IMG/VR virus record: IMGVR_UViG_2690316318_000024
Reading direction: 5' to 3' (one strand)
DNA: 9,273 nucleotides
From: a virus
Lineage: Duplodnaviria; Heunggongvirae; Uroviricota; Caudoviricetes
In this document: positions 4,742 through 4,854 of the stretch, piece after piece
How positions within the stretch are numbered: the first letter of the stretch is position 1
Layout: every line of letters begins with the position of its first letter
Made by a program: the position numbers and the translations under genes
The notes under the pieces: model-generated
What the model was told of the DNA's origin: nothing
What the model saw: only the letters and a program-made list of their open reading frames with translations
Databases searched by the model: none

Positions 4742-4842
4742 AAAAACAACAAACAGGCAGGACGCCCACGAAGTAGCCGCCTGGGGCATATGAAGTCCAG
4801 GATGATTCGTTAGCAACAAAAAAGCGCCCTACAGGACGCTTA

Positions 4843-4854
4843 GCTCTTTAACAA
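4843..4854 (+). promoter_or_regulatory. boxA-like antitermination element (GCTCTTTAACAA) in the leader of the early-left transcript
   Basis: Twelve-of-twelve identity to the boxA core of E. coli rrn antiterminators as I recall it (TGCTCTTTAACAA). About 110-120 nt downstream of the predicted start site, upstream of the first ORF. An imperfect hairpin (4823-4840) lies just upstream. Confidence 0.4.

What the first reader, a model, noticed from the sequence alone, without database searches (positions are those of the whole stretch)
4823..4854. rrn-type boxA-like element with an upstream hairpin in the early-left leader, but no N-like protein
GCTCTTTAACAA (4843-4854) matches the boxA core of rrn/lambda antitermination sites as I recall it. 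It is preceded, not followed, by an imperfect hairpin (4823-4840), unlike lambda nut sites where boxB follows boxA. The first ORF downstream lacks an arginine-rich motif. Combined with the terminator-like hairpin at 5766-5810, this suggests antitermination by host Nus factors alone or by an unrecognised phage factor.
Basis: partly seen in the sequence, partly recalled or inferred. Interest (0 to 1): 0.45.

Follow-up and report, generated by a model that had tools for sequence, protein, structure and literature searches.

The report
Phage boxA fused to reverse terminator
In the leader of a prophage's early-left operon, a perfect ribosomal-RNA-type boxA sits directly after a hairpin that is really the terminator of an oncoming gene on the other strand, and just upstream lies an undescribed, widely conserved structured RNA that may be the phage's missing antitermination device.

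Summary
GCTCTTTAACAA is at 4843-4854 and an imperfect hairpin is at 4822-4841, about 110 nt downstream of a repressor-controlled PL-like promoter (4697-4725). No N-like gene follows.

A-tract, hairpin and boxA form one conserved module, found in more than 120 phage contigs.
- **Hairpin.** The loop varies freely. On the minus strand the stem is perfect (G.U where the plus strand has C.A) and a U6 run follows. In 45 of 47 contexts a convergent gene from at least 7 unrelated families ends within 260 nt. It is therefore most likely the intrinsic terminator of the oncoming gene (here 5078-5512), not a boxB analogue.
- **boxA.** It matches the published consensus GYTCTTTAANA and 13 nt of the rrnG leader. 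In 123 hairpin-anchored copies only the consensus N position varies repeatedly (five copies). It most likely loads NusB/NusE and the other Nus factors onto PL polymerase, so that it resists Rho across about 840 nt of untranslated antisense RNA. This is inferred, not shown.

Directly upstream (4748-4811) is a 64-nt three-way-junction RNA with strong covariation. It is absent from Rfam, unlike HK022 put, and also present in E. coli K-12 e14. It is the best candidate for the "unrecognised factor".

The parts
4697..4725 (+). PL-like sigma-70 promoter (TTGACA, 17-nt spacer, TAAATT). The inferred transcription start is near 4732.
   Evidence: Promoter scan scored 10 of 12. Flanking 11-mer and 16-mer sequences are repeated in the cro-cI spacer. 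Phages SfIV, ZF40, SPN3UB, pAEv1818 and e14 have promoter-like -35/-10 hexamers (read by eye, not scanned) at the same place, downstream of cI.
4748..4811 (+). 64-nt three-way-junction leader RNA. P1 pairs 4748-4753 with 4806-4811. A mini-hairpin pairs 4756-4758 with 4764-4766. P3 pairs 4780-4784 with 4797-4801. J2/3 is CACGAAGUAGCCG and J3/1 is AUGA.
   Evidence: More than 120 IMG/VR loci. In 53 diverse sequences, 10 of 11 pairs show compensatory changes, with 94.7% of cells paired against 19-42% in slid controls. Model R1 scores the window at 89.5 bits. No Rfam family matches.
4818..4823 (-). A-tract on the + strand, which is the U6 tract of the minus-strand terminator.
   Evidence: Read directly from the sequence. 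An A-tract of 3 or more bases (usually 5-8) is kept in all 66 module contexts although the sequence upstream differs.
4822..4841 (-). Intrinsic-terminator hairpin for leftward (minus-strand) transcription coming from the convergent gene. It is deliberately weak in the PL direction (C.A mismatch).
   Evidence: Terminator scan. Strand-specific energies. The A of the mismatch is kept in all but 2 IMG/VR copies, and one exception flips C.A to A.C, which is G.U on the minus strand. A convergent ORF follows in 45 of 47 contexts.
4843..4855 (+). rrn-type boxA (GCUCUUUAACAAU), a putative NusB-NusE loading site on the PL transcript.
   Evidence: Exact match. Consensus and rrnG sequence from PMC5725501 and PMC2724277. 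Position-specific conservation. Predicted to be mostly unpaired.
4900..5106 (+). First early-left ORF (68 aa, phrog_1744, function unknown). It is not N-like.
5078..5512 (-). Convergent 'ECs1072-family' gene (144 aa, phrog_5286). Its transcript would run into the terminator at 4841-4822. The PL transcript is antisense and untranslated across it.
5590..5813 (+). STnc100/PasD-like prophage sRNA. Its terminator (stem 5764-5804 plus U5 at 5806-5810) lies in the path of PL transcription.
   Evidence: Rfam RF02076: 43.2 bits (gathering score 47), E = 7e-7. Fold.

Best explanation
The segment 4818-4855 is a conserved two-faced junction module. It sits where the early-left (PL) operon of N-less lambdoid phages meets a convergently transcribed accessory gene.

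**Read on the minus strand.** The GC hairpin plus U6 is the intrinsic terminator of the oncoming gene (here 5078-5512). It stops that transcript before it invades PL and the immunity region. The conserved G.U pair becomes a C.A mismatch on the plus strand, and no continuous U-tract follows there. PL polymerase is therefore hardly stopped by it.

**Read on the plus strand.** The next 13 bases of the PL transcript are a consensus rrn boxA. This most likely binds NusB-NusE(S10) and nucleates the Nus complex (NusA, NusG, SuhB) on RNA polymerase, as in rrn operons and CRISPR leaders. That would make the polymerase resistant to Rho while it crosses about 840 nt (5107-5947) that carry no translated plus-strand gene.

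**What is shown.** The sequence, its conservation pattern, the strand asymmetry and the gene context.

**What is inferred.** Nus binding, resistance to Rho, and termination of the leftward transcript.

**A separate problem.** Passing the strong intrinsic terminator at 5764-5810 probably needs something else. The best candidate is the 64-nt structured RNA at 4748-4811.
For: **boxA**
- Exact 12-mer at 4843-4854. It matches GYTCTTTAANA (PMC5725501) and rrnG gcucuuuaacaau (PMC2724277). Chance expectation is 3e-4 in the leader.
- The module was found in more than 120 IMG/VR contigs and 66 distinct contexts.
- In 123 copies retrieved by the hairpin alone, the boxA varies repeatedly only at consensus position N (5 copies). 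Position 2 varies once. The spacer base, the loop and the downstream flank vary freely.
- Hairpins of the same shape in unrelated phages and bacteria carry no boxA.
- boxA is predicted to be mostly single-stranded: mean unpaired probability 0.60, 74th percentile.

**Hairpin as a minus-strand terminator**
- Minus strand: 8-bp stem plus U6. Plus strand: bulged, -7.5 kcal/mol.
- Only 2 copies lack the mismatch A. One of them keeps a wobble pair on the minus strand only.
- 45 of 47 contexts have a convergent ORF whose stop codon is within 260 nt, from at least 7 unrelated families.
- In a set anchored on the leader RNA and blind to the module, 12 of 12 loci with boxA had a convergent first gene, against 22 of 79 without boxA (p = 1.7e-6).

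**Other support**
- A C>G stretch at 5382-5511 on the untranslated PL transcript could serve as a Rho loading region.
- No N gene is present (PMC3851460).
Against: - No experiment supports this. Nus binding and Rho dependence are entirely inferred.
- About 100 of 121 phages with the same leader RNA have no boxA, including 22 whose first gene is convergent. The boxA is therefore dispensable for this operon type.
- The association with convergent genes is equally expected if boxA were only a passenger next to the terminator.
- Most copies are closely related, so invariance partly reflects recent common descent.
- In suhB a boxA near a start codon represses rather than antiterminates (PMC5725501).
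- rrn-type complexes are not known to read through strong intrinsic terminators. boxA alone does not explain passage of 5764-5810.
Confidence: 0.55

Rival explanations
1. Only the minus-strand terminator is functional. The boxA-like bases are a conserved linker or 3'-UTR segment kept by recent descent and by recombination between phage modules. They bind nothing on the PL transcript.
For: The module always accompanies a convergent gene. Many copies are near-identical. Most phages with the same leader RNA do without boxA.
Against: A 13-base identity to rrnG, in the sense orientation, in a lambdoid early leader is unlikely by chance (3e-4). Variation falls on the one degenerate consensus position, while flanking bases vary. 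The module is shared by at least 7 unrelated convergent gene families, so it is not the 3' UTR of one cassette. One lineage (L131/L136) keeps boxA while its hairpin has lost a base.
Confidence: 0.2
2. The hairpin plus the U-rich start of boxA (UUAGCUCUUU) is a plus-strand attenuator. It ends a short leader RNA of about 115 nt (the 64-nt structured RNA plus the hairpin). Read-through depends on the upstream RNA or another factor, and the boxA resemblance is incidental to the U-rich tail.
For: An A-tract upstream and U-rich bases downstream are typical of bidirectional terminators. Several unrelated copies of the hairpin have T-runs on both sides. The structured RNA lies immediately upstream in 91 of 100 module loci.
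Against: The plus-strand stem is interrupted by a conserved C.A mismatch and is weak. The U-tract is broken by AGC. The scan called no plus-strand terminator here. The structured RNA usually occurs without the module.
Confidence: 0.08
3. The boxA acts as in suhB. Nus factors bound 46 nt upstream of the ATG at 4900 hinder translation of the small ORF and thereby promote Rho termination. This would make it a negative, autoregulatory-type control of early-left expression.
For: The boxA lies within 50 nt of a start codon, the criterion used in PMC5725501. That paper's Supplementary Data lists similar unexplained hits in E. coli UMN026 and E. fergusonii.
Against: In most module contexts no plus-strand ORF follows. 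The next gene is convergent, and its stop codon often lies 10-30 nt from boxA. A role tied to one downstream start codon therefore cannot explain conservation of the module.
Confidence: 0.07
4. This is a lambda-like nut site with reversed order. An unrecognised phage protein binds the upstream hairpin as N binds boxB, and works together with boxA and the Nus factors.
For: Hairpin and boxA are adjacent and conserved together.
Against: The hairpin loop is not conserved at all, unlike boxB loops, which N recognises. No conserved protein is encoded next to it, and the first early-left ORFs differ between phages. The stem is optimised for the other strand.
Confidence: 0.04

Closest known systems
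rrn operon leader antitermination site (boxB-boxA-boxC; rrnTAC with NusA/B/E/G, SuhB, S4)
   Same: The boxA core and the following base are identical (GCUCUUUAACAAU). A hairpin directly precedes boxA. There is no dedicated phage protein. The expected target is Rho acting on long untranslated RNA.
   Different: No boxC-like UGUGUGGG follows. The preceding hairpin is not homologous to rrn boxB and appears to serve the opposite strand. The context is a repressor-controlled phage promoter, not a ribosomal operon. Function is untested.
Lambda nutL/nutR (boxA-spacer-boxB plus N protein)
   Same: The position is the same, in the leader of the early-left operon of a lambdoid phage. A boxA is used.
   Different: Lambda boxA is the weaker CGCUCUUA. 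Lambda boxB lies downstream and has a conserved loop bound by N. Here there is no downstream hairpin and no N gene (PMC3851460).
BoxA elements outside rrn: CRISPR-array leaders (PMC7665894) and the suhB 5' UTR (PMC5725501)
   Same: These are stand-alone consensus boxA sites on a transcript that is poorly translated or untranslated. Nus factors act without N.
   Different: Those are chromosomal. This one is carried by a mobile phage module and is fused back-to-back with an opposite-strand terminator.
HK022 putL RNA (factor-independent antiterminator just downstream of PL)
   Same: The neighbouring 64-nt RNA (4748-4811) has the same location and size. It occurs in N-less lambdoid phages and has no conserved protein partner.
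   Different: The architecture differs: a three-way junction against two stem-loops. The covariance model gives no hit to HK022 putL or putR. There is only one copy per phage and none in the ~3 kb of the PR operon held in the window. The resemblance is by position only.
Intrinsic terminators made unidirectional by G.U pairs
   Same: GC stem, short loop and U6 tract on the minus strand. The G.U pair becomes a C.A mismatch on the other strand, which weakens that strand's hairpin.
   Different: None in kind. The hairpin-only scans show this is a common terminator shape.

Membership tests
BoxA (NusB-NusE binding site of rrn type) | Sequence fits the consensus GYTCTTTAANA and the rrn UGCUCUUUAACAA | tested here: met
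   GCTCTTTAACA at 4843-4853 is the only match in the window. Consensus from PMC5725501. rrnG sequence from PMC2724277. The base before it is A, not the U of rrn.
BoxA (NusB-NusE binding site of rrn type) | Lies in the sense strand of a transcript, downstream of a promoter | tested here: met
   It lies 118 nt downstream of the predicted PL -10 element. It is co-oriented with the leader RNA in 91 of 100 module loci. The promoter is predicted, not mapped.
BoxA (NusB-NusE binding site of rrn type) | Conservation pattern follows the known functional positions | tested here: met
   In 123 hairpin-anchored copies, position 10 (N) varies 5 times, position 2 varies once, and the rest are invariant, while flanking bases vary. 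Caveat: many copies are closely related.
BoxA (NusB-NusE binding site of rrn type) | Binds NusB-NusE and confers Nus-dependent resistance to Rho | not testable with these tools
   Needs binding assays, ChIP or reporter assays.
Lambda-type nut site | boxB hairpin downstream of boxA with a conserved loop | tested here: not met
   No hairpin lies in 4855-4900. The upstream hairpin has more than 15 different loops.
Lambda-type nut site | N protein with an arginine-rich motif encoded in the early-left operon | tested here: not met
   The first ORF is phrog_1744, of unknown function. Annotated relatives show no N. SfIV, SfII and SfV are reported to lack N (PMC3851460).
Intrinsic (Rho-independent) terminator, minus strand | GC-rich stem, short loop, then a U-tract | tested here: met
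   8 pairs (5 of them G-C), 4-nt loop, then UUUUUU GUUGCU. About -12.4 kcal/mol.
Intrinsic (Rho-independent) terminator, minus strand | Located downstream of a co-oriented gene | tested here: met
   45 of 47 contexts. In the window it lies 237 nt beyond the stop codon of 5078-5512, with the small plus-strand ORF in between.
Intrinsic (Rho-independent) terminator, minus strand | RNA 3' ends map to the U-tract | not testable with these tools
   Needs Term-seq or 3' RACE.
HK022 put RNA (tested for the neighbouring 64-nt RNA) | put-like sequence and two-stem structure, with copies after both PL and PR | tested here: not met
   Model R1 finds no hit in the HK022 immunity region at E up to 10. Local alignment is negative. 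The window holds a single copy.
HK022 put RNA (tested for the neighbouring 64-nt RNA) | Factor-independent antitermination through the RNA polymerase beta' zinc-binding domain | not testable with these tools
   Needs in vitro transcription and rpoC mutants.
STnc100 sRNA (RF02076), for 5590-5813 | Score at or above Rfam's gathering threshold | tested here: inconclusive
   43.2 bits against a threshold of 47, E = 7e-7, full-length alignment including the terminator.

The most novel reading that the evidence does not exclude
The 64-nt three-way-junction RNA at the very 5' end of the PL transcript (4748-4811) may be a new class of cis-acting, protein-independent RNA that modifies RNA polymerase. 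It would be a functional analogue of HK022 put with an unrelated fold. It would give N-less SfV/e14/ST64B-type phages processive antitermination. Where the operon must also cross a convergent gene, the phage adds a consensus rrn boxA to recruit the host Nus complex against Rho. Early-left expression would then depend on two RNA signals and no phage protein.
Probability: 0.25. Interest if true: 0.8.

Novelty: new variant of a known kind. Interest (0 to 1): 0.5.

Why it matters
BoxA-Nus antitermination is textbook for rrn operons and for lambda with N. More recently it has been shown for CRISPR arrays and suhB. A stand-alone consensus boxA carried as a mobile module in phages that have no N would extend Nus-only control to phage early operons.

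It would also show a compact design principle. One 40-bp block terminates transcription in one direction and arms it against termination in the other, exactly where a phage operon meets an oncoming accessory gene.

The neighbouring conserved RNA is found in hundreds of enterobacterial phages and in E. coli K-12 e14, so it is easy to test. It offers a direct handle on an old question: how N-less lambdoid phages other than HK022 express their early operons.

Tried and rejected
1. **Homology of the leader RNA to HK022 put.** Local alignment and covariance-model search of the HK022 immunity region were both negative. The shared ACGAAC and CAGGAUGA strings lie in different structural positions, so I treat them as coincidence.
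2. **Rfam.** The whole window and a sensitive scan of 4700-4900 gave nothing for the leader RNA or the module. Only weak minus-strand terminator look-alikes appeared.
3. **Second copy of the leader RNA, or a boxA on the PR side.** None was found.
4. **Hairpin-only pattern in genome contigs.** The 16 specified bases were too unspecific for 596 Gb, so most hits were unrelated. The scan served only as a control, showing that the hairpin is a generic terminator shape and that boxA follows it only in Enterobacteriaceae.
5. **Extra tertiary pairs in the leader RNA.** Mutual information found nothing beyond P1 and P3. A possible alternative hairpin (G36-C45, C37-G44, C38-G42) involves invariant bases and cannot be tested.
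6. **Hammerhead, K-turn and C/D-box readings of the GAUGA and CGAAG motifs.** The junction order does not fit.
7. **PADLOC and Pfam on the convergent genes.** No informative hits.
8. **Literature.** Searches for the RNA sequence and for put-like elements in these phages found nothing.

Full report
**Setting.** The window is the immunity and early-left region of an e14/SfIV/SfV-type lambdoid prophage of E. coli, drawn in the reverse of the lambda map.
- Minus strand: a cro-like gene (2690-2938) and replication genes.
- Plus strand: a LexA-type cI repressor (3074-3760).
- Minus strand: a BRCT-domain accessory gene (3743-4633).
- Plus strand: a near-consensus promoter, TTGACA-17-TAAATT, at 4697-4725. 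It is flanked by an 11-mer (CATAAAGTTGT) and a 16-mer (ACAACTTwwAGGTGTT) that recur in the cro-cI spacer. This is what one expects of shared operators, so it is the PL equivalent.
- Downstream on the plus strand: a 68-aa ORF (4900-5106), yfdP-, yfdQ- and yfdR-like genes, xis and int.
- Between the 68-aa ORF and the yfdP-like gene, on the minus strand: a 144-aa 'ECs1072-family' gene (5078-5512).
- Both small ORFs match full-length phage protein families of unknown function (phrog_1744 and phrog_5286).

**The observation.** GCTCTTTAACAA is at 4843-4854 and occurs nowhere else in the window.
- It fits the experimentally derived consensus GYTCTTTAANA (PMC5725501).
- It equals 13 consecutive bases of the rrnG boxA-spacer, ugcucuuuaacaauuua (PMC2724277).
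- About 0.0003 chance matches to the consensus are expected in a 170-nt leader.
- The hairpin at 4822-4841 is real and lies upstream of boxA.
- That order, a hairpin and then boxA, is the rrn order (boxB-boxA-boxC; PMC2724277, PMC10250234). It is not an anomaly.

**The module in other phages.** A scan of IMG/VR for GGACGCTTNGCTCTTTAACAA reached the 120-locus limit and gave 66 distinct contexts. The conserved block is:
- an A-tract of 3 or more bases (usually 5-8);
- GCGCCC, a free loop, then GGACGC;
- TT, one free base, then GCTCTTTAACAA, often followed by TCTGGATATCC.

Beyond that block the sequences diverge.

**Evidence that the hairpin serves the minus strand.**
- The loop takes more than 15 forms (TACA, TATA, CGTA, CGAA, ATC, GACT and others).
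- The stem is constant and includes a C.A mismatch that becomes a G.U pair on the minus strand.
- The plus-strand hairpin folds at -7.5 kcal/mol with a bulge. The minus-strand hairpin is a continuous 8-bp stem of about -12.4 kcal/mol followed by U6.
- A scan for copies in which the mismatch A is replaced found only two. One has a shortened perfect stem. The other changes C.A to A.C, which keeps a wobble pair on the minus strand and a mismatch on the plus strand.
- In 45 of 47 distinct contexts, a minus-strand ORF of at least 80 aa has its stop codon within 260 nt of boxA, often within 10-30 nt. These ORFs fall into at least 7 unrelated families.
- In a set of loci collected through the upstream leader RNA, and so blind to the module, all 12 distinct loci with boxA have a convergent first gene, against 22 of 79 without boxA (Fisher p = 1.7e-6).
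- Scans for the hairpin alone show the same A-tract, GCGCCC-loop-GGACGC and T-tract shape without boxA, in unrelated phages (70 of 192 copies) and in bacteria from many phyla. It is a generic terminator form.

I conclude that the hairpin is the intrinsic terminator of the oncoming gene. Its asymmetry lets PL transcription pass.

**Is the boxA more than a passenger?**

Evidence for function:
- The match to rrn is improbable by chance and is in the sense orientation, in the place where lambdoid phages put boxA.
- In 123 copies retrieved through the hairpin only, the 12-mer varies at position 10, the degenerate N of the consensus (five copies), and once at position 2. The adjacent spacer base, the loop and the 3' flank vary freely.
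- The block is shared by unrelated convergent genes, so it is not one gene's 3' UTR.
- One lineage keeps boxA although its hairpin has lost a base.
- boxA is predicted to be largely unpaired in 62 contexts.

A functional rationale also exists. From 5107 to 5947 the PL transcript has no credible plus-strand ORF. It is antisense to the convergent gene, then runs through a structured sRNA region, and has a C>G stretch at 5382-5511. Such RNA is the natural prey of Rho. Stand-alone boxA with Nus factors is known to protect untranslated RNA from Rho in rrn operons and CRISPR arrays (PMC2724277, PMC7665894).

Evidence against:
- Most phages with the same leader (about 100 of 121) have no boxA, including some with convergent genes.
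- Many copies are close relatives.
- In suhB a boxA represses rather than antiterminates (PMC5725501).
- Nothing here is experimental.

I put the probability that the boxA is a working Nus site at about two in three. The whole two-faced reading I put at about 0.55.

Query bases covering window 4744-4811 are conserved in SfV, SfII, SfIV, ST64B, SPN3UB, mEp237, mEp460, ZF40, and in Yersinia, Klebsiella, Pantoea, Citrobacter and Aeromonas phages. In the four annotated phage loci inspected it lies in unannotated DNA upstream of the first early-left genes on their strand; in three (ZF40, SPN3UB, pAEv1818) an annotated cI-type repressor gene lies just upstream on the same strand.
- A scan with its invariant 22-mer hit more than 120 contigs with 102 variants.
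- It folds into a three-way junction: P1 (6 bp), a 3-bp mini-hairpin (GGC/GCC, with one GUC/GAC double change), and P3 (5 bp with a conserved loop, GGCRUAYGAA).
- In 53 diverse sequences, 10 of 11 pairs in P1 and P3 show compensatory changes. 94.7% of cells are paired, against 19-42% when partners are slid.
- It starts 10-16 nt after the predicted transcription start.
- It is not in Rfam.
- It is not matched by HK022 putL or putR.
- It occurs once per phage.
- It precedes the boxA module, co-oriented, in 91 of 100 module loci.
- The first early-left ORFs next to it differ between phages and none is N-like.
- It is present in E. coli K-12 e14, between ymfK and ymfJ.
- SfIV, SfII and SfV are reported to lack N, cII and cIII (PMC3851460).

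A put-like, protein-independent action on RNA polymerase is therefore an attractive hypothesis, but it is untested.

**The hairpin at 5766-5810.**
- It is a 13-bp stem plus U5.
- rrn-type Nus complexes are not known to override such intrinsic terminators.
- boxA is therefore a poor explanation for passing it. This is the main reason to suspect a second device.

**Verdict.**
- boxA is probably a real, N-independent Nus site.
- The hairpin belongs to the other strand.
- The candidate 'unrecognised factor' is an RNA, not a protein.

This is a new variant of a known kind of system, of moderate interest in itself. The adjacent RNA is a more novel lead.

Noticed in passing
window 4748-4811 (+): A 64-nt three-way-junction RNA lies at the 5' end of the PL transcript. 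It has more than 100 sequence variants across enterobacterial and Aeromonas phages and strong covariation. It is absent from Rfam 15, unlike HK022 put, and also present in E. coli K-12 e14 (L235 6105-6181, minus strand).
   Followed up: yes
window 5590-5813 (+): An STnc100/PasD-like prophage sRNA (RF02076, 43.2 bits against a gathering score of 47) lies inside the early-left operon. SfIV annotates a 226-aa ORF over this region, which is probably an over-call.
   Followed up: partly
window 5806-5904: A 25-bp perfect long stem encloses two small hairpins, immediately after the sRNA terminator. Fold z-score for the folded 5755-5905 stretch (which also includes the sRNA terminator hairpin) is -7.7. 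Function is unknown.
   Followed up: no
window 1390-1464: Iteron-like direct and inverted repeats (TCTGAC/GTCAGA units) lie inside the replication-protein gene 824-1606(-). They are probably the phage origin. They gave a spurious mir-5880 Rfam hit.
   Followed up: no
window 3743-4633 (-): A BRCT-domain accessory gene is wedged between cI and PL and overlaps the 3' end of cI by 18 nt. It has a weak match to the candidate defence family PDC-S48 (E = 2.4e-7).
   Followed up: partly
L008 1565-1640, L009 1555-1615, L004 2950-3000: A second conserved non-coding block in other PL leaders: AACGCGCAGCAGGT ... AAACGTTCCGCTGGCC(R)GCG. In Klebsiella phage Kp4882-1 it directly precedes the hairpin-boxA module, and the 64-nt RNA is absent.
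   Followed up: no
L150 4658-4818; also L103, L024, L063: A structured element of about 160 nt is closed by a 16-bp stem (GGTATCTTCGGGAGGGG ... CCCCGCCCGAAGATAC). It lies between the first early-left ORF and the boxA module. There is no Rfam match.
   Followed up: partly
PMC5725501, Supplementary Data 1: The published genome-wide boxA list contains undiscussed GCTCTTTAACA hits 31 nt upstream of hypothetical genes in E. coli UMN026 (ECUMN_0866) and E. fergusonii (EFER_0580). These may be copies of this prophage module.
   Followed up: no
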